In this document: positions 14,801-21,322 of the stretch, in pieces
How positions within the stretch are numbered: the stretch's first letter is position 1
How the letters are laid out: each line of letters starts with the position of its first letter
Assembly: GCA_964521325.1 (NCBI GenBank)
Contig: CAZFRL010000004.1
Location: 1 to 51,293 of the forward strand
Direction of reading: 5' to 3'
Origin: an uncultured Dehalococcoidales bacterium
Lineage (GTDB): Bacteria; Chloroflexota; Dehalococcoidia; Dehalococcoidales; CAZFRL01
DNA length: 51,293 bases
Made by a program: the position numbers and the translations under genes
The notes under the pieces: model-generated
What the model was told of the DNA's origin: nothing
The model's input: the letters and a program-made list of their open reading frames with translations, nothing else
The model's database searches: none

Positions 14801-15638
14801 CACTGGTAGCAAATCTGCCTCCATCTAGTTGAACCAAAGGTCGAAGGTCAGGGGGTAAGACAGGTAACACGGTTAAAATCATCCACTCTGGTTTATTGCC
14901 ACTGCGGCGGAGGGACTCCACTAGGCGTAGCTGCTTGCTTGCCTTCTTGCGGCGTTGACCTGAAGTAGATTGGATTTCCTGGAGCAGGCTGCTACGTATT
15001 TCATCAAGGTTAATGTCCTTGAGAATTTGTAGAATAGCCTCAGCTCCTATCCCTGCCTCGAAAACTTGACCATATTTCTGTTTGAGCTCATGATATTGAT
15101 TCTCGGTGAGTAGGTCCCCCATTCTGAGGTCTTTTAGTTGTTCCATTTCAATGGCAAGCTCTTCCTCAGGTTGTGTCTCTTCCTCAGGCTGTTTAATTGC
15201 TTCTTGTCGTGCCTCTTCGTTAATAGCGGTGATGATATAATGGGAGAAGTATAGAACACGCTCCAGACTTCGCGGTGACAGGTCGAGCAATAATCCCAAT
15301 CGGCTTGGTATCCCCTTAGCAAACCAGATATGACTCACCGGGCACGCTAGCTCAATATGTCCCATACGTTCTCGACGTACTTTAGCCCGGGCTACCTCAA
15401 CGCCACACTTATCGCAAATAATTCCTTTGTAGCGTATCCCTTTATACTTACCACAGTAACATTCAAAATCTTTAGTCGGACCAAAGATTCTCTCACAGAA
15501 AAGCCCATCCCTTTCTGGCTTCAGGGTACGGTAGTTGATAGTCTCTGGCTTGGTTACCTCACCGTAGGACCAGCTCCTGATCTGCTCCGGTGAAGCTAGG
15601 GAGATACGGACAGCATCAAAATCATTAACTTCCAGCAT
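11856..15638 (-). CDS. rpoC: RNA polymerase beta' subunit
   Basis: Zn-ribbon [21 protein letters not shown], catalytic NADFDGDQM; ATG 15638 with GAGGAGG SD. Confidence 0.99.
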
Positions 15639-18600
15639 TTTCCTCCTCAACCTCATTAAGTGCTTTCGTGGTTTCCTCAGCGAAGGCTGCCTTTTCCTCT
15701 CCTTCGTTAATCACCTCAATAGCAAGCCCTAAACTTTGCAGTTCTTTAACTAGAACCTTAAACGATTCAGGCACGCCAGGTTGGAGAATATCCTCATTCT
15801 TAACTATAGCCTCATAGGTTTTGTCTCGACCGGACACATCATCTGACTTGATAGTCAGAACTTCCTGAAGGTTATGGGCAGCGCCATAGGCTTCTAGTGC
15901 CCATACCTCCATCTCACCAAAGCGTTGACCTCCGAATTGGGCCTTACCGCCTAGGGGTTGTTGAGTAATCAAAGAGTAGGGCCCAATAGAGCGGGCATGA
16001 ACCTTATCCTCAACCAGGTGGATTAGTTTCATCATATAGATATTCCCCACTGTTACCGGCTGGTCAAAAGGCTCACCGCTGCGTCCATCGCGGAGTATAA
16101 CCTTGCCATTTACAGGTGGAGCAAGCTTCCTTTCACTACTTACCCTTTCCACTGCTTGCCGCAGTGCCTGTAAGTCAAGGTCTCGGCTAGCTATACCTAA
16201 TTCTTCAAGCCAAAGGCGCAAGCAAACCTCTCTCGCTTCTCCCGAGTAGTCGTCACTGAATACTCTGTCTCCGTCGTAGCCATTACTTTTAAGCCACGCC
16301 TTAGCTAGTTCCAATTGCACCGTGGCATTCTCGTTACTAGGGCCAGAGTCAACCGCCCCAGCTTTCTGAGCTAGCCAAGCCCTAGCCAGGGCATCCTCAA
16401 TATCAGTATCATCGGCACCATCAAAAACCGGGGTGAGTACCTTGAAGCCCAGTATCTGGGCAGCCCAGCCAAGGTGAGTTTCCAGCACCTGACCGATATT
16501 CATACGTGATGGGACACCTATAGGGTTGAGGATTATGTCTACCGGTGTGCCATCGGGGAGGAAAGGCATGTCCTCAACGGGGGCAATACGGGCGATCACA
16601 CCCTTATTACCATGCCGCCCGGATAGCTTATCCCCTACGGAAATTCTTCGTTTCTGGGCAATCCAAACCTGCACTCGTTTTTCAACTCCAGCCGGTAGGT
16701 CATCACCAGTGAAGTCTCTAACATTAATCACTTTACCCCACTCGCCGTGAGGCACTCGTAGCGAGGTATCCTTTACCTCACGGGCTTTCTCACCAAAGAT
16801 AGCCCGCAAAAGTTTCTCTTCAGCCGATAGCTCGGTCTCTCCCTTGGGGGTAATCTTACCTACTAGTATGTCACCTGGGCCTACTTTGGCACCAACCCGA
16901 ATAATGCCAGTTTCATCAAGGTCACGTAGGCTTTCCTCACCCACATTAGGTATATCTCTGGTGATTTCTTCGGGTCCTAACTTGGTATCCCGAGCCTCTA
17001 CCTCATACTTCTCAATATGAATAGAAGTAAATTTATCCCGTTCAACTAGGCGATTGCTGATGATGATAGCATCCTCAAAGTTATAACCTTCCCAGCTCAT
17101 AAAGGCACACAGCACATTCTGTCCCAGAGCCAGTTCCCCCTGTTCAGTAGATGAGCTATCAGCCAGAACTTGCCCCTTTTCTACTCGGTCGCCTTTACTT
17201 ACTATGGGGTTTTGGTTAAGGCAAGTACCCTGATTAGTGCGGACAAATTTCATTAGCGGGTATAATTTCTTATCACCGCTATCTTCGGTAACCTCTATCT
17301 GTGAGCTGGTAACTGAGGCTACCACCCCGGCATTCTGGGCATAGAGTACCTGCCCACTGTGCTTAGCCGCTTCCATTTCCATACCGGTGGCTACCAAGGG
17401 TGCCGTAGGGGAAAGCAACGGTACCGCTTGCCGCTGCATATTTGCTCCCATCAGAGCACGATTTGCATCATCGTGTTCTAGGAAGGGTATTAGTGCCGTG
17501 GCAACACTGACCATCTGCTTGGGTGATACATCCATAAAATCAATTTTATCGGGTGTCTCCAGTAAGTAGCGGTCACCATGCCTGGCTTCAACCTTCTCTG
17601 CCACAAATTGGCTATTTTGATTAAGCCGGGCATTAGCCTGGGCAATAGTATATTTATCCTCTTTGTCGGCTGAAAGGTAAACGACCTCATCAGAGACGAA
17701 GGGTGCTACCTTTATACTTCTAGGGGATAGGCGAGATAGCTTGGTAGCCAGCTGGGGGGTAATGGTAGTCCCAGCTTTTACTACAGTATTGCCCTTGTTA
17801 TTAACCACTGCCTCCGTGGTTGTCTTACCCAGCAAATTGTCATAAGTATTGCTTACCTCAGTTATAACCCTGCGGTATGGTGTCTCAATAAAGCCATATT
17901 GGTTAATCTGGCTGTAGGTGGCTAAAGAGCCAATAAGACCAATGTTAGGTCCCTCTGGTGTCTCAATGGGGCAAATTCTACCATAGTGAGAGAAGTGGAC
18001 ATCGCGGACATCAAAGCCAGCACGCTCACGAGATAAACCTCCTGGTCCCATTGCTGATAGGCGGCGCTTATGCGTCAGCTCAGCCAATGGGTTCGTTTGG
18101 TCCATAAATTGTGATAGCTGCGAACCATTGAAGAACTCTCTGACCGCGGCTGCTATGGGGCGAATATTAATCAGAGCACTAGGAGTAACTGCTTCCGTGC
18201 TAATAATGCTCATACGTTCCCTGACTGCTCTCTCTAGGCGCAATAGCCCGATACGAAACTGGTTCTGGACCAACTCGGCAACTGTACGCACTCGCCGATT
18301 CCCTAGGTGGTCAACATCGTCTGGGGTATCCTCACCATTATTAACCATGAAGATATGCCTGATTATCTCTATGATGTCTTCCTCGTCTAGAGCTGGGTTT
18401 CTTTTTGAATCATCAAGCCCTAATCGTTTATTAAGCTTATATCGACCTACATTCCCAAGGTCGTAACGCTGAGGATCAAAGAGCAGGTTCTTGGTTAGTT
18501 TTCTGGCATTTTCAATATTAGGTCGGTCCCCAGGGCGCAATTTCTTATAGATATCAATTAGAGCATCGGATTCATTTCTAATTAAGGGCTCGCGTTGCAT

Positions 18601-19293
18601 AGTTAACTTCATAAATTGATGCTCTGAAGAACTGTCCTCTTGGGGAAACAGGTTAAAAAGTTGCTCATCACTACTGTAACCAATAGCCCGTAGCAACGTA
18701 GTAACTGGAATCTTGCGTTTACCGTCAATTTTGACTGAAATTACATCCCGATTGCTGGTCTCAAACTCTAGCCAGGCCCCTCGGGTAGGGATTAATTTAG
18801 CCTGACACAATTCACGACCGGTAGTGGCATCTTCTTCAATGGTGAAATAGATACCTGGGGAGCGGAGTAACTGGCTTACCACTACCCGTTCAGCACCATT
18901 AGTAATAAAGGTCCCTTTAGCTATTATCAGGGGAATATCACCGAAGAATAGGTCTTGTTCTTTGATTTCACCTGTTTCCTTAACTAGTAATCGTGCTTTA
19001 ACATAGAGGGAGCTTGAGTAAGTCAGGTCACGCTGGCGGCATTCTTGCTCAGGATGAGGCTTACGGAACTCGTAGTTTATGAAGTTAAGCTCCAGTCTAT
19101 TGCCGGTTAAATCTTTAATAGGAGATGCCTCCTCCAGCAGTTGCTTTAGTCCCTTTTCTTGAAACCAGCGGAATGAGTCTAATTGAACTTTATTCAGATT
19201 GGGTACTTCCAGTATCTGGGGTAGTCTAGCGTAGGATTTTCTAGGGCAGGGAAACGTCTCTTTTTCAATGCGGGTTGGTGACATAAAAACCAT
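15625..19293 (-). CDS. rpoB: RNA polymerase beta subunit
   Basis: [52 protein letters not shown]; AGGAG SD. Confidence 0.99.
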
Positions 19294-19456: not shown

Positions 19457-19585
19457 TCAGGAAGCAAGAAGTCTGGTAACTGTGCCCTTAGCAGTATTGG
19501 TCATTCTACAAGTAGCACGAATGGAATTACCTTCGCATAAAACCTTGATAACTTGTGTTTGTCGTTCTATACTTAGCTCATTCAT
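19457..19585 (-). pseudogene. IS1-family-type transposase N-terminal fragment (42 aa, not in ORF track)
   Basis: MNELSIERQTQVIKVLCEGNSIRATCRMTNTAKGTVTRLLAS*: HTH with the EGNSIRATxRMT signature typical of IS1-like transposase N-termini; no DDE domain follows. Confidence 0.75.
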
Positions 19586-19608: not shown

Positions 19609-19637
19609 ATTATAGCATAACGCTCAAGCATTGTCAA
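19609..19637 (-). promoter_or_regulatory. Consensus sigma70 promoter of transposase remnant
   Basis: TTGACA-ATGCTTGAGCGTTATGC(17)-TATAAT. Confidence 0.75.
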
Positions 19638-19710
19638 GAGAAATATAAGAAAAAACTTATATTATTATACCACAAAATTATACTTGACAATATAAGAAAA
19701 AACTGATATT

Positions 19711-20094
19711 ATGGGTATTGAGTTCACTTTTTACGACTATATTGATGAAACTGGAAATAACATCATAAAGAATTGGCTTAATAGTGAAGCGAAGGATGCA
19801 AAGGCACTTTTTAACCAAGTCATACCTCACCTAGAAGCTACTCCGCCACCCTGGAGCACAAAATACGTTATACGTATGAAATATGATTGGAAAGGATTTA
19901 TTGAATTACGTAAAACTGGGAAGATACAATATAGACTGCTTGGTCAAATACGAAACCGAGATGTTTATTTAGTAGCGTTTGGCTTTCATAAGGGGAAATA
20001 TACAACAGATGTAGCACCTGAAATAGCAGCAGTGAGAGTATCACAAATGATAGCCAACCCCGCGAAGTACAGGAGGAAGCATGAATACAACTAA
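19711..20094 (+). CDS. RelE/HigB-like (Gp49-type) toxin
   Basis: FYDYIDETGNNIIKNWL N-terminus; GFIELR...QYRLLG...LVAFGFHK; directly upstream of an HTH gene (HigBA order). Confidence 0.7.
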   Translation: MGIEFTFYDYIDETGNNIIKNWLNSEAKDAKALFNQVIPHLEATPPPWSTKYVIRMKYDWKGFIELRKTGKIQYRLLGQIRNRDVYLVAFGFHKGKYTTDVAPEIAAVRVSQMIANPAKYRRKHEYN

Positions 20095-20593
20095 CGAGTA
20101 CAAGCAAATGTGGGAAAGCCTACAAGACCCTGATTACCGTAAACAGCTTATTGATGAACATATTAATGTTGGTATTGCTTTTCAAATTCACGGTCTTAGA
20201 AAACGACAGGGACTGAAACAGAAGCAGTTAGCTGAAAAATTAGGAGAAAAGAAACAGCCCTTAATTTCTTCGTGGGAAAATCCGAACTATGGCAAATACA
20301 CGCTAGGAACTTTGAAAGATTTGGCAAAGGCTTTTGATGTGGGTTTATTAGTTCGCTTTGTGCCATTCAGCACATTGGTTGATTGGACAATTAACCTAAC
20401 TCCTGATGTTATTGCACCTCCTAGTTTCAGCGAAGAACAAAAACGCATCGCAATGTGGGATTGGGTGGCTTCTATCCCACTGAAAGACACAAGGGATATG
20501 GATGCATACGACTTATCAAATCGTATGCCAGTCCCAGTCCCACGCATTCCATCCACATCAAGGATTGGAGAGGAGGCCTTAGCAAATGCGTGA
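20081..20593 (+). CDS. XRE/HigA-like HTH antitoxin with C-terminal extension
   Basis: IHGLRKRQGLKQKQLAEKLG..QPLISSWENPNYGKYTLGTLKDLAKAFDV; ~55-aa tail after FVPFS...F. Confidence 0.8.
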   Translation: MNTTNEYKQMWESLQDPDYRKQLIDEHINVGIAFQIHGLRKRQGLKQKQLAEKLGEKKQPLISSWENPNYGKYTLGTLKDLAKAFDVGLLVRFVPFSTLVDWTINLTPDVIAPPSFSEEQKRIAMWDWVASIPLKDTRDMDAYDLSNRMPVPVPRIPSTSRIGEEALANA

Positions 20594-21014
20594 AGAATTT
20601 AGGGAACGACTTGCAAAGGAATATCGCTATGCTGTAACAAAGATGCAAGAGGCAACGCAGCTATCTCAAAAGCTGTTCTATTTCAGTGTCTTTTTTGGAG
20701 AGGCGCAGCGTGTGCTCAATTGGGAATGGGACACTGACCTTGTGCTCATACACATACTTACCATGCACGTCCATACACAAACCAATGCCGCAGTACAAAT
20801 GCCAAGAATTGGACAAACAATACCTCTCGATTGGACAACCTTTTCTGATAAGCTGACCCAAGTTGCCTCTGACCTTGCCACCTACTTTGAGAAGGCAGAA
20901 GATGGGGATAGTAAAGAAGAACTATACAAAATATTAGGGTGCTTTGCTGAAATTGCCTATGCTGTTTCAGGGAATGGCAGTTATTTGTTGGAGAAAGGAA
21001 CCTTTAAGCTTTAG
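20586..21014 (+). CDS. Hypothetical, predicted all-alpha protein (third gene of TA operon)
   Basis: 142-aa ORF overlapping the antitoxin stop, GAGG SD; no family recognised. Confidence 0.65.
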   Translation: MREEFRERLAKEYRYAVTKMQEATQLSQKLFYFSVFFGEAQRVLNWEWDTDLVLIHILTMHVHTQTNAAVQMPRIGQTIPLDWTTFSDKLTQVASDLATYFEKAEDGDSKEELYKILGCFAEIAYAVSGNGSYLLEKGTFKL

Positions 21015-21234
21015 TATTCCAACGTGTTTGGGCTGCTTTTTTAGCAATCTCACTTCGTTTTCTAGGTGTTAATTTTTCAGCTCTAGCCTTGCCACCCTTT
21101 AATCCACCTTTACGCCCTAAAGCTGCATAGTCAATATCTGGTTTAGGTTCTTTTTCAGTTTGTCCGGTTGCTTCTTGGACTACACGAAAAGCGGTAACGG
21201 CGAAGTCATGTTCCTTTTTCTTACGCTTTGCCAT
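21004..21234 (-). CDS. Small basic KGG-motif protein
   Basis: AALGRKGGLKGGKARAEKLTPRKRSEIAKKAAQTRW; a type often seen beside IS1-like transposases. Confidence 0.75.
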   Translation of the reverse strand: MAKRKKKEHDFAVTAFRVVQEATGQTEKEPKPDIDYAALGRKGGLKGGKARAEKLTPRKRSEIAKKAAQTRWNTKA

Positions 21235-21240
21235 ACTTAA

Positions 21241-21269
21241 ATAGTAAGCTAACGCTCAAGCATTGTCAA
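21241..21269 (-). promoter_or_regulatory. Promoter for KGG gene (probably leaderless)
   Basis: TTGACA-ATGCTTGAGCGTTAGCT(17)-TACTAT, then 6 nt to the ATG, with no SD. Confidence 0.65.
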
Positions 21270-21277
21270 CGCTCAAG

Positions 21278-21322
21278 CATTTCAAAATGATACACTACCC
21301 CATTTCAAATTGACCCACTACC
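21278..21322. repeat. Two tandem IS terminal-repeat copies
   Basis: CATTTCAAAATGATACACTACC (21278-21299) and CATTTCAAATTGACCCACTACC (21301-21322); reverse complements begin GGTAGTG. Confidence 0.65.

What the first reader, a model, noticed from the sequence alone, without database searches (positions are those of the whole stretch)
19711..21014. HigB/HigA-like pair with tailed antitoxin and an unknown third partner
Seen: three overlapping genes (14- and 8-nt overlaps): a RelE/HigB-like toxin, an XRE antitoxin with a ~55-aa C-terminal tail (WDWVASIPL...PVPVPRIPSTSR), and a 142-aa protein. Established: toxin-antitoxin-chaperone (TAC) systems have this layout, with a SecB-like third gene, and some defend against phage. 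Inference: the third protein reads as all-alpha rather than SecB-like, so this may be a TAC analogue with a different tail-binding partner or sensor. It is a second three-part TA module in this window and rides on a mobile element.
Basis: partly seen in the sequence, partly recalled or inferred. Interest (0 to 1): 0.65.

Follow-up and report, generated by a model that had tools for sequence, protein, structure and literature searches.

The report
Toxin-antitoxin operon with unknown third partner
A three-gene toxin-antitoxin operon riding on a decayed jumping gene ends in an uncharacterised helical protein that, across hundreds of uncultured bacteria, nearly always (70 of 72 sites checked) sits just behind antitoxin-like DNA-binding proteins, which carry long floppy tails in every case examined, so it is probably a new kind of antitoxin helper, untested at the bench.

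Summary
Three intact overlapping genes lie at 19711-21014, with 14- and 8-nt overlaps.

- g1 is a divergent Gp49/HigB-type, RelE-fold toxin.
- g2 is an XRE-HTH antitoxin. Its first ~120 residues are conserved and its last ~50 are variable.
- g3 is a 142-aa five-helix protein with no hit in Pfam, NCBIfam, PADLOC or PDB, only a chance-level PHROGs hit, and no fold relative.

g3 is a real family of 408 clusters at 50% identity.
- All 21 genome loci carry g1-g2-g3 in this order.
- In 70 of 72 distant metagenome loci, g3 follows directly after a same-strand gene. This is mostly an XRE-HTH protein, but also HicB or a winged-HTH protein, with a long variable C-terminal extension where domain limits were mapped.
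- The gene further upstream is Gp49, a DUF6932 nucleotidyltransferase, or another type.
- Close g2 homologues without the tail lack g3 (3 of 3).
- g1 and the g2 core co-diverge (r 0.84). g3 does not track them, but the tail tracks g3.

This matches the comparative signature of toxin-antitoxin-chaperone (TAC) systems, yet g3 is not SecB-like. Binding and function are untested, and g3 could instead be a second toxin or a regulator.

The module is cargo of a 2.55-kb IS1-like element. Its transposase is cut to 42 codons in this window.

The parts
19457..19585 (-). 42-codon stub of the IS1-like DDE transposase (N-terminal HTH only). The rest is deleted, and rpoB starts at 19293.
   Evidence: 72.5% identical to residues 1-40 of the intact 278-aa transposase of L001. 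The intact proteins hit NCBIfam transpos_IS1 at 57-60 bits, below the cut-off of 100, and Pfam DDE_Tnp_IS1.
19609..19637 (-). Consensus promoter TTGACA-17-TATAAT in front of the transposase stub. It contains the 20-nt repeat TAACGCTCAAGCATTGTCAA (19618-19637).
   Evidence: 12 of 12 match. The repeat family is D1.
19642..19663 (.). Perfect palindrome AATATAAG-n6-CTTATATT, the likely distal operator of g2.
   Evidence: Equivalent palindromes occur at the same place in most of the 20 homologous loci examined.
19685..19712 (+). Promoter TTGACA-17-(TG)TATTAT. Its spacer holds the second palindrome (19689-19710) and its -10 box overlaps the g1 ATG.
   Evidence: 11 of 12 match with TG extension. The architecture is conserved in homologous loci.
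19711..20094 (+). g1: divergent Gp49/HigB-type RelE-fold toxin, 127 aa. The family-invariant R75 and C-terminal H124 are present.
20081..20440 (+). g2 core (residues 1-120): XRE HTH (39-89) plus conserved flanks ending in PPSFSEE. It co-diverges with g1.
   Evidence: Mantel r 0.84.
20441..20593 (+). g2 C-terminal tail (residues 121-170), variable in the family. It holds a semi-conserved element IAMWDWVASIPLKDTRDMDAY (20447-20509) and IPSTS (20546-20560). The last codons carry the SD and start codon of g3.
   Evidence: Mean pairwise identity is 17%, against 56% for the core.
20586..21014 (+). g3: 142-aa all-alpha protein of an uncharacterised family. Motifs are KLFYFS (20670-20687), R42xxN45, and GNGSYL (20970-20987).
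21004..21234 (-). g4: 76-aa basic protein (GRKGGLKGGKARAEKL...AAQTRW). It converges on g3 with an 11-nt overlap and belongs to the IS backbone.
   Evidence: It is intact in about 8 homologous elements and decayed in others.
21241..21269 (-). Promoter TTGACA-17-TACTAT, 6 nt before the g4 ATG. It contains the second copy of the 20-nt repeat (21250-21269).
21278..21322 (-). Right terminal inverted repeat of the IS1-like element (reverse complement GGTAGTGTATCATTTTGAAATG, 21278-21299), plus a second, degenerate copy (21301-21322).
   Evidence: Homology with other elements ends at 21299-21305. The same sequence ends every element, and L021 also has it at its left end. Loose ends at 21299/21300 appear in three metagenome runs.

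Best explanation
This is an intact tripartite toxin-antitoxin operon carried as cargo by a now-immobile IS1-like transposon of a Dehalococcoidia-type (Chloroflexota) bacterium from a salt marsh.

- g1 is a Gp49/HigB-type RelE-fold toxin. By homology (inferred), it is a ribosome-dependent mRNA endonuclease.
- g2 is its HigA-type XRE antitoxin and probable autorepressor, acting at the two palindromes in the promoter region. Its first ~120 residues co-evolve with g1.
- g2 ends in a ~50-residue variable tail, which together with g3 forms a separate evolutionary unit.
- g3 is the founding member of an uncharacterised ~140-aa helical family. In 70 of 72 distant loci it is the next gene after an antitoxin-like DNA-binding protein, and all those sampled are tail-bearing.

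Most likely mechanism (inferred, not shown): g3 binds the tail and keeps the antitoxin stable and competent, so neutralising g1 depends on g3, as SecB-like chaperones do in TAC systems. Loss, titration or sequestration of g3 would inactivate g2 and free g1, which would stop translation.

On the transposon, the module would act as an addiction or retention device, and possibly as a stress or phage trigger.

Shown here: gene structure, families, folds, synteny, tail/g3 co-occurrence and modular exchange. Inferred: toxicity, binding and the direction of the g3 effect.
For: Structure and families:
-.

Strict linkage:
- 21 of 21 genome loci have g1-g2-g3 in this order.
- In distant family members, 63 of 63 distinct upstream neighbours are same-strand genes ending -17 to +63 nt from the g3 start.

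Several partner families:
- The immediate upstream neighbour is HTH_3 in 47 of 67 cases. It is also HicB (domain ends at residue 119 of 205) or ArsR/MarR-like winged HTH (domain 29-110 of 206).
- The gene further upstream is Gp49 in 28 of 50 cases and a DUF6932 nucleotidyltransferase in 9 of 50.

Tails:
- The tails printed for the partner families are long and dissimilar. TAC antitoxins are described the same way: SecB is linked to the HigA, MqsA and HicB families, and their C-terminal extensions vary in length and composition (PMC5105189).
- Close g2 homologues (72-76% identical in the core) that end 10-25 residues after PPSF.EE have no g3 within 3 kb, in 3 independent loci. One of these still has g1.

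Modular exchange:
- g1 vs g2 core: Mantel r 0.84, p 0.0005.
- g3 vs g1: r 0.06. g3 vs g2 core: r 0.16.
- Tail vs g3: r 0.34, p 0.009. Tail vs g2 core: r 0.08.
- A DT[KR]D.D[AV][NY] tail element is shared by loci with different g1-g2 types.

Other points:
- Translational coupling: the stop and start codons overlap, and the g3 SD lies inside the last g2 codons.
- Independence from the IS: only 5 of 80 distant loci carry the IS1-like transposase or g4.
- The M. tuberculosis TAC toxin HigB1 gives the best full-length structural match to g1 (TMq 0.54, 122 columns).
Against: - No interaction, stability or toxicity data exist, and a complex could not be modelled with the tools allowed.
- g3 is not SecB-like and has no detectable relative of known function.
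- g3 has invariant or near-invariant polar residues (E12, S34, R42, N45, G129-N130-G131, Y133). This looks more like an enzyme or a specific ligand pocket than a generic chaperone. It is also odd for a partner of hypervariable tails.
- The tail/g3 co-variation and the joint absence of tail and g3 could come from simple physical adjacency.
- Some distant loci have no same-strand gene upstream of the DNA-binding gene. There the system may be a two-gene pair, or may use a divergent partner.
- The tail motif of the close family is not found in distant tails.
- The window's own g1 is below Pfam's Gp49 threshold, and all Foldseek E-values are >= 0.038.
Confidence: 0.45

Rival explanations
1. g3 is itself a toxin or effector of a new family, and the disordered C-terminal tail of g2 is its neutralising arm. 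The operon would then be a toxin-antitoxin-toxin sandwich: g2's folded core handles g1 and its tail handles g3. In other loci, the HTH-tail protein plus g3 would form an ordinary antitoxin-then-toxin pair.
For: - The arrangement is canonical for type II modules: a DNA-binding antitoxin with a C-terminal disordered arm, followed by an overlapping downstream gene.
- g3 is more conserved than g1 (mean pairwise identity 55% against 40%) and about as conserved as the g2 core (56%). It has invariant polar residues, as toxins with a fixed cellular target do.
- About 9 distant loci show only HTH-tail protein + g3 on that strand.
- In L004, g1 is broken while g2-g3 stay intact.
- Tail-less g2 lacks g3, which fits this model equally well.
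Against: - No similarity to any known toxin fold. There is no Fic motif (HxFx[DE]GNGRxxR) despite the GNG, and no HEPN Rx4-6H.
- The tails are far less conserved than g3 (17% against 55%), which is unusual for an arm that must wrap a conserved toxin.
- One intact orphan g3 has no same-strand upstream gene (L080).
- The loci without an upstream same-strand gene have conserved divergent neighbours that could be the toxins.
Confidence: 0.22
2. g3 is a trans-acting regulatory or sensor subunit of the HTH protein. It would bind a ligand, a phage protein or a host protein, dock on the tail, and change DNA binding or operon expression, without acting as a stabilising chaperone.
For: - In 70 of 72 distant loci with enough upstream sequence, g3 directly follows a same-strand gene, usually a DNA-binding protein.
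- It has a conserved polar pocket-like residue set.
- Weak, non-significant Foldseek and Pfam echoes of the FCD ligand-binding domains of GntR regulators.
- The promoter/operator design is elaborate and conserved.
Against: - The fold matches are at chance level (E >= 0.26, TM about 0.35).
- Nothing indicates a ligand.
- The model does not explain why the partners are specifically antitoxin families with toxins upstream.
Confidence: 0.15
3. g3 belongs to the transposon's own machinery, for example as a transposition regulator working with g4. Its place next to the TA pair would then be incidental.
For: In the close subfamily, g3-g4-IRR form one block conserved at 73-77% nucleotide identity while g1-g2 are swapped. 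g3 and g4 overlap convergently by 11 nt in all intact elements.
Against: - 75 of 80 distant g3 loci have neither the IS1-like transposase nor g4, yet keep the upstream partners.
- L029 has the trio next to an unrelated IS3-type element.
- The trio stays intact in many loci where the transposase and g4 have decayed.
Confidence: 0.03

Closest known systems
Toxin-antitoxin-chaperone (TAC) systems: M. tuberculosis HigB1-HigA1-SecB(TA) (Rv1955-1957), and E. coli HigBA-type and CmdTAC defence systems
   Same: - Three-gene operon in the order toxin, antitoxin, third gene.
- The toxin is of the Gp49/HigB1 family, and M. tuberculosis HigB1 is the best full-length structural match to g1.
- The antitoxin is an XRE-HTH protein with a C-terminal extension that two-gene homologues lack.
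- The third gene associates with several antitoxin families (HigA-like and HicB here; HigA, MqsA and HicB for SecB), whose extensions are not similar to each other (PMC5105189).
   Different: - The third protein is an all-alpha ~140-aa bundle with no similarity to SecB (an alpha/beta tetramer) or to any known chaperone.
- Binding and addiction are untested.
- The partner set also includes DUF6932 nucleotidyltransferase modules and winged-HTH proteins.
- There is no evidence of phage defence.
Two-gene Gp49/HigB - HigA (XRE) modules (Pfam PF05973 + PF01381)
   Same: Toxin-first gene order, RelE fold, an HTH_3 antitoxin, and palindromic operators overlapping the promoter.
   Different: - g1 is a divergent branch: the window's copy scores below Pfam's threshold.
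- The antitoxin is about 60-70 residues longer than the tail-less homologues.
- A third gene is obligatorily attached.
Other three-component TA modules: pasABC of pTF-FC2, paaR2-paaA2-parE2, omega-epsilon-zeta (from my own knowledge, not checked here)
   Same: A RelE/ParE-type or other toxin with its antitoxin, plus a small third protein that modulates neutralisation or transcription.
   Different: Those third components are small regulators or enhancers tied to one system. g3 is a large family that moves between unrelated TA cores together with the antitoxin tail.
TA pairs embedded in transposition modules of Tn3-family transposons (PMC7157771, listed; title and abstract only)
   Same: A TA-type module sits inside the transposon, next to the transposase gene with divergent promoters, rather than among ordinary passenger genes.
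   Different: The vehicle here is a 2.55-kb IS1-like element (DDE transposase of 278 aa, ends GGTAGTG...). The module has three genes, and a further small gene (g4) lies at the other end.

Membership tests
TAC (toxin-antitoxin-chaperone) system | Three co-oriented, tightly coupled genes in the order toxin - antitoxin - third gene | tested here: met
   The overlaps are 14 and 8 nt. The same order is found in 21 of 21 genome loci.
TAC (toxin-antitoxin-chaperone) system | The antitoxin carries a variable C-terminal extension that chaperone-independent homologues lack | tested here: met
   The tail has 17% mean identity against 56% for the core. Homologues of 131-145 aa that lack the tail also lack g3.
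TAC (toxin-antitoxin-chaperone) system | The third gene encodes a SecB-like chaperone | tested here: not met
   No Pfam or NCBIfam hit. The predicted fold is all-alpha. No SecB chain appears among the listed Foldseek matches.
TAC (toxin-antitoxin-chaperone) system | The third protein binds the extension and is required for antitoxin stability and toxin neutralisation | not testable with these tools
   This needs co-expression and rescue, pull-down or a complex prediction. Fused or paired inputs are not accepted by the structure tool.
Gp49/HigB toxins (PF05973, RelE superfamily) | Sequence match to the Pfam model above the gathering score | tested here: not met
   - The window's g1 has no hit.
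- Its own subtype reaches at most 21.1 bits against a cut-off of 23.9.
- Relatives in the same family do pass: L001 at 27.5 bits and 11 of 22 at E <= 0.1.
- A profile-profile comparison with Gp49-positive relatives gives probability 71%, E 3.7e-5.
Gp49/HigB toxins (PF05973, RelE superfamily) | RelE-type fold (N-terminal helices packed on an antiparallel sheet) | tested here: met
   AF2 pLDDT is 92.7. The best Foldseek hits are mostly RelE-superfamily chains, with probabilities up to 0.95 but E >= 0.038.
Gp49/HigB toxins (PF05973, RelE superfamily) | Catalytic basic and histidine residues; ribosome-dependent mRNA cleavage | tested here: inconclusive
   R75 and the C-terminal H124 are invariant in 22 sequences. 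This recalls the Arg and C-terminal His of YoeB/HigB (my own knowledge). Activity is not testable here.
XRE/HigA-type antitoxin (PF01381 HTH_3) | Cro/C1-type HTH above threshold, encoded directly after the toxin | tested here: met
   36.9 bits against a cut-off of 23, at residues 39-89.
IS1 family insertion sequence (the vehicle) | IS1-type DDE transposase, and terminal inverted repeats starting GGT | tested here: inconclusive
   - Intact homologues hit NCBIfam transpos_IS1 at 57-60 bits, below the cut-off of 100. One of two passes Pfam DDE_Tnp_IS1 (25.7 bits against 24.1).
- The ends read GGTAGTGTATCA(T/C)TTTGA.
- That IS1 ends start with GGT is from my own knowledge.
- In the window only 42 codons of the transposase remain.
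Fic/Doc toxins (considered for g3 because of the GNG motif) | HxFx[D/E]GNGRxxR core motif and Fic fold | tested here: not met
   The family consensus is Y-x-T-T-G-N-G-Y-Y-L, with no His, Phe or Arg at the motif positions. There is no Pfam Fic hit in 113 members and no Fic or Doc chain among the listed Foldseek hits.
HEPN RNases (considered for g3: a helical bundle beside nucleotidyltransferase genes) | Rx4-6H motif | tested here: not met
   The only invariant Arg (R42) is followed by xxN45, not by His. The single HEPN-MNT chain in the Foldseek list has probability 0.09.

The most novel reading that the evidence does not exclude
The g3 family (at least 408 clusters at 50% identity; motifs KLYYFS and TGNGYYL..KG) may be a second, SecB-independent class of 'addiction partner' for type II antitoxins. 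A helical protein and a cognate disordered antitoxin tail would travel together as a portable unit. They would have been grafted onto HigBA-like, HicAB-like, nucleotidyltransferase and other modules, making toxin release depend on the state of g3, possibly as a sensor of phage or stress.
Probability: 0.4. Interest if true: 0.75.

Novelty: new variant of a known kind. Interest (0 to 1): 0.62.

Why it matters
As far as I know, and in the papers consulted here, SecB-like proteins are the only dedicated antitoxin chaperones described. They turned out to be the phage-sensing element of TAC defence systems.

A structurally unrelated protein family with the same genomic behaviour would show that 'partner-addicted' antitoxins evolved more than once. 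It would also:
- give a new portable tail/partner pair for controlling protein stability;
- assign a role to a sizeable family of hypothetical proteins from uncultured Chloroflexota and other sediment bacteria;
- add a case of a TA-type module built into a small IS-like transposon and kept after the transposase decayed.

If g3 is instead a new toxin, that would also be a new family worth knowing.

Tried and rejected
Searches for a known relative of g3:
- Pfam, NCBIfam, PADLOC and PDB sequence search found nothing. PHROGs gave only one chance-level match (E 0.3).
- A profile of 113 members against the PDB gave only designed helical bundles and coiled coils.
- A Pfam scan of 113 members found no recurrent family. 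The best was TED_2 in 6 members at E >= 0.0017.
- Foldseek against PDB and BFVD gave no hit with E < 0.1.
- No g3 was found in IMG/VR viral contigs or PLSDB plasmids.
- No source gives a name to ten sampled clusters.

Ideas rejected:
- Fic/Doc, suggested by the GNG motif, and HEPN, suggested by the neighbouring nucleotidyltransferases. Both were rejected on their motifs.
- g3 as IS machinery, rejected because 75 of 80 distant loci lack the IS genes.
- A universal tail motif. 'DAN' is enriched (7 of 32 non-redundant tails against 0.44 expected). However, an HMM of the close-family element finds nothing significant in distant tails.
- An MqsRA-type reading of L107 (two CxxC pairs plus HTH). It got no support from PDB sequence search, and the listed Pfam tables show no Mqs family. 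It stays a lead only.
- The g2-g3 fusion ORF P0121. Its linker looks like an out-of-frame read-through, so I did not use it as evidence.

Attempts that failed or were unavailable:
- No public RNA run holds the stretch, so the transcription start and expression remain unknown.
- The genome search and the fetch from genomes were shut, so there is no copy count in the window's own genome and no taxon-wide census.
- The structure tool's input limits prevented a complex prediction.
Full report
**1. Observation**

- g1 19711-20094 (127 aa)
- g2 20081-20593 (170 aa)
- g3 20586-21014 (142 aa)

The overlaps are 14 nt and 8 nt. A fourth small gene, g4 (21004-21234, minus strand, 76 aa), converges on g3 with an 11-nt overlap. 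g2 and g3 have good Shine-Dalgarno sequences (AGGAGG and GGAGAGGAGG). g1 has none. The region is AT-rich (31-43% GC) against about 48% in its neighbours. It lies between rpoB (15625-19293, minus strand) and a PAS-STAS gene.

**2. The parts**

*g2.* It hits HTH_3 at residues 39-89 (36.9 bits). An alignment of 23 homologues shows a conserved block up to ...IAPPSFSEE (about residue 120). A 40-80 residue stretch follows that varies in length and sequence. The last residues (KEL.HA) coincide with the g3 SD and start codon, so they are constrained at the DNA level.

*g1.*
- On its own it has no family hit.
- 11 of 22 family members match Pfam Gp49.
- The window's subtype reaches 21.1 bits, below the 23.9 cut-off.
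- A profile-profile comparison with Gp49-positive relatives gives 71% probability, E 3.7e-5.
- A family profile picks HigB (6af3) as the best PDB sequence.
- The AF2 model (pLDDT 92.7) retrieves mostly RelE-superfamily structures: Cami1, HigB, YoeB, YafQ and HP0892. The best full-length alignment is to M. tuberculosis HigB1, the TAC toxin. All E-values are modest, >= 0.038.
- R75 and the C-terminal H124 are invariant.
- I therefore accept 'RelE/HigB-like toxin' as a divergent branch. Catalysis is untested.

*g3.*
- It folds as five helices plus a short C-terminal one (pLDDT 85.8, pTM 0.81).
- It has no significant structural neighbour in the PDB or BFVD and no meaningful sequence-family match.
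- The family is conserved. R42 and G131 are invariant. E12, S34, N45, G129, N130, Y133, L134 and G138 are nearly invariant over 113 diverse members.
- Its motifs are KL(Y/F)(Y/F)FS and (T/S)GNG.YL..KG.

**3. The vehicle**

Homologous loci show a five-gene unit set in unrelated flanks:
- a 278-aa transposase on the minus strand;
- g1-g2-g3 on the plus strand;
- g4 on the minus strand.

The transposase is a distant IS1-type DDE enzyme: NCBIfam transpos_IS1 at 57-60 bits, below the cut-off, and Pfam DDE_Tnp_IS1. Similarity between elements stops at GGTAGTGTATCATTTTGAAAT on the g4 side, which is 21278-21299 in the window. L021 has the same sequence inverted at the transposase end. Metagenome contigs from the source habitat (salt marsh) break exactly at 21299/21300 into different sequences.

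In the window only the first 42 codons of the transposase survive (19457-19585), so this copy is immobile. A 20-nt repeat (19618-19637 and 21250-21269) is the core of two minus-strand promoters that drive the transposase stub and g4. The element lies next to rpoB in four genomes, once in the other orientation.

**4. Is g3 tied to the TA pair?**

- Close family: 21 of 21 genome loci have g1, g2 and g3 in this order. The transposase is full-length in about a third of them, and g4 in a similar share. The trio therefore outlives the IS.
- Wider family: an exhaustive profile search finds 408 clusters at 50% identity. I fetched 80 metagenome loci of the TTGNGYYL branch, out of 244 found.
- Of the 80 loci, 72 have enough upstream sequence. 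They give 63 distinct same-strand upstream neighbours, and all 63 end -17 to +63 nt from the g3 start. Of the two apparent exceptions, one is an ORF-picking artefact and one is real (L080).
- That neighbour is an XRE-HTH protein in 47 of 67 distinct cases. Other cases are HicB (Pfam domain ends at residue 119 of 205), ArsR/MarR-like winged HTH (domain 29-110 of 206), and unassigned proteins of 78-300 aa.
- The gene before it is Gp49 in 28 of 50 cases and a DUF6932 nucleotidyltransferase in 9 of 50, with other types too. Some loci instead have a conserved divergent gene.
- Only 5 of the 80 loci carry the IS1-like transposase or g4. P0250's locus has the trio beside an IS3-type element.
- So g3 belongs with the antitoxin-like gene, not with the transposon.

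**5. Is the tail tied to g3?**

- The upstream partners sampled from each family have long C-terminal regions that are not alike. Where domain limits were mapped, these regions lie beyond the recognisable domain.
- Among 120 close homologues of the g2 core, nearly all are 156-189 aa. I looked up three short ones (131, 145 and 134 aa; 72-76% identical in the core) that lie on contigs with enough flank. They end 10-25 residues after PPSF.EE and have no g3 within 3 kb. One of them (L112) keeps an intact g1 and lies among phage-like genes.
- Divergence analysis of 22 loci:
  - g1 and the g2 core co-diverge (Mantel r 0.84, p 0.0005).
  - g3 is uncoupled from both (r 0.06 and 0.16).
  - Tail divergence follows g3 (r 0.34, p 0.009), not the core (r 0.08).
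  - For example, L001 shares 23% (g1) and 41% (g2 core) identity with the window, but 75% for g3.
- A tail element, (S.AS..phi)-DT[KR]D.D[AV][NY], occurs in loci of both g1-g2 types.
- So the tail plus g3 behave as one unit that has been combined with different toxin-antitoxin cores. Physical adjacency alone could produce part of this signal.

**6. Interpretation**

These are the comparative hallmarks reported for TAC systems:
- SecB-like chaperones are attached to the HigA, MqsA and HicB antitoxin families.
- Their C-terminal extensions vary in length and composition and show no mutual similarity.
- The chaperone/extension pair can be transferred (PMC5105189).
- TAC toxins are Gp49-family HigB proteins (PMC11980606).

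The best-supported reading is that g3 is a non-SecB partner of the antitoxin tail, and that it makes neutralisation of g1 conditional on g3. I put this at about 0.45.

The main rival, at about 0.2, is that g3 is a new toxin held by the tail. The geometry of an antitoxin with a disordered C-terminal arm followed by an overlapping gene is the canonical antitoxin-toxin layout. g3 is also conserved, with invariant polar residues. A regulatory or sensor role gets about 0.15, and an IS function about 0.03.

Membership in TAC proper fails on the defining SecB-like chaperone. This is therefore 'works like', not 'is a member of'.

**7. Regulation (noticed, not resolved)**

Upstream of g1 there is a perfect palindrome, AATATAAG-n6-CTTATATT (19642-19663). 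A one-mismatch copy (19689-19710) sits inside the spacer of a near-consensus extended -10 promoter (19685-19712), and that promoter's -10 box overlaps the g1 ATG. The same design recurs in about 20 loci.

If transcription starts the usual ~7 nt after the -10, those transcripts lack the g1 start codon and could express only g2 and g3. From memory, E. coli hicAB has a promoter that yields antitoxin only. That recollection is a lead, not a test. No RNA data exist for this stretch.

**8. Verdict**

- The system is a new variant of a known kind: a tripartite TA with a novel third-component family.
- It is carried on an IS1-like transposon that is defunct in this genome.

Noticed in passing
window 19685-19712 and 19642-19663; the same places in L001-L026: A near-consensus extended -10 promoter has its -10 box overlapping the g1 start codon. 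One palindromic operator sits in its spacer and another 47 nt upstream. The design is conserved in about 20 loci, and g1 has no SD. Transcripts from this promoter may lack the toxin's start codon and give only g2 and g3.
   Followed up: partly
window 19618-19637, 21250-21269, 21267-21286: A 20-nt repeat, TAACGCTCAAGCATTGTCAA, forms the -35/spacer of the two minus-strand promoters for the transposase stub and g4. The promoter appears to have been duplicated when the cargo was taken up. Depth peaks in metagenome contigs show that other elements in the community share it.
   Followed up: partly
window 21278-21322: Two stacked copies of the right terminal repeat, one intact and one degenerate, in the same orientation. 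This points to repeated insertion at one spot, or a leftover end.
   Followed up: no
window 15625-19293 with L016, L021, L024: The IS1-like element lies directly upstream of rpoB in four different Chloroflexota genomes, once in the opposite orientation. This is either a preferred target or an old insertion. In the window, the stub's consensus promoter points into rpoB.
   Followed up: no
L004:4075-4475: g1 is split over two reading frames (a likely frameshift) while g2 and g3 are intact. This looks like toxin-first decay of the module.
   Followed up: no
L112:913-1702 (also L111): A two-gene version lies among phage-like genes (HNH, a P22-type small protein): g1 plus a tail-less g2 of 131 aa, with no g3.
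   Followed up: partly
L032, L036, L037, L043, L055, L096, L110 and others: A second recurrent trio: a DUF6932 nucleotidyltransferase (140-149 aa), an XRE-HTH protein of 204-233 aa with a long tail, and g3. No paper in the library mentions DUF6932.
   Followed up: partly
L053, L069, L101: A winged-HTH protein with a tail, plus g3, faces a conserved divergent 165-174 aa gene (motif VL(V/I)LGPYKP...NWAD.LIFV) of unknown family. This gene may be the effector of that variant.
   Followed up: no
window 21004-21234: g4 is a basic 76-aa protein with the motif GRKGGLKGGKARAEKL...AAQTRW. Its promoter ends 6 nt before the ATG, so it is probably leaderless. It weakly matches phrog_2384 (E 8e-7). Its role at the IS end is unknown.
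   Followed up: no
window 19648/21303 in run X4: One metagenome contig joins 19648 to 21303, skipping 1654 nt (the cargo and g4). Only 20 nt lie on one side. It may come from a cargo-less relative of the element in another organism.
   Followed up: no
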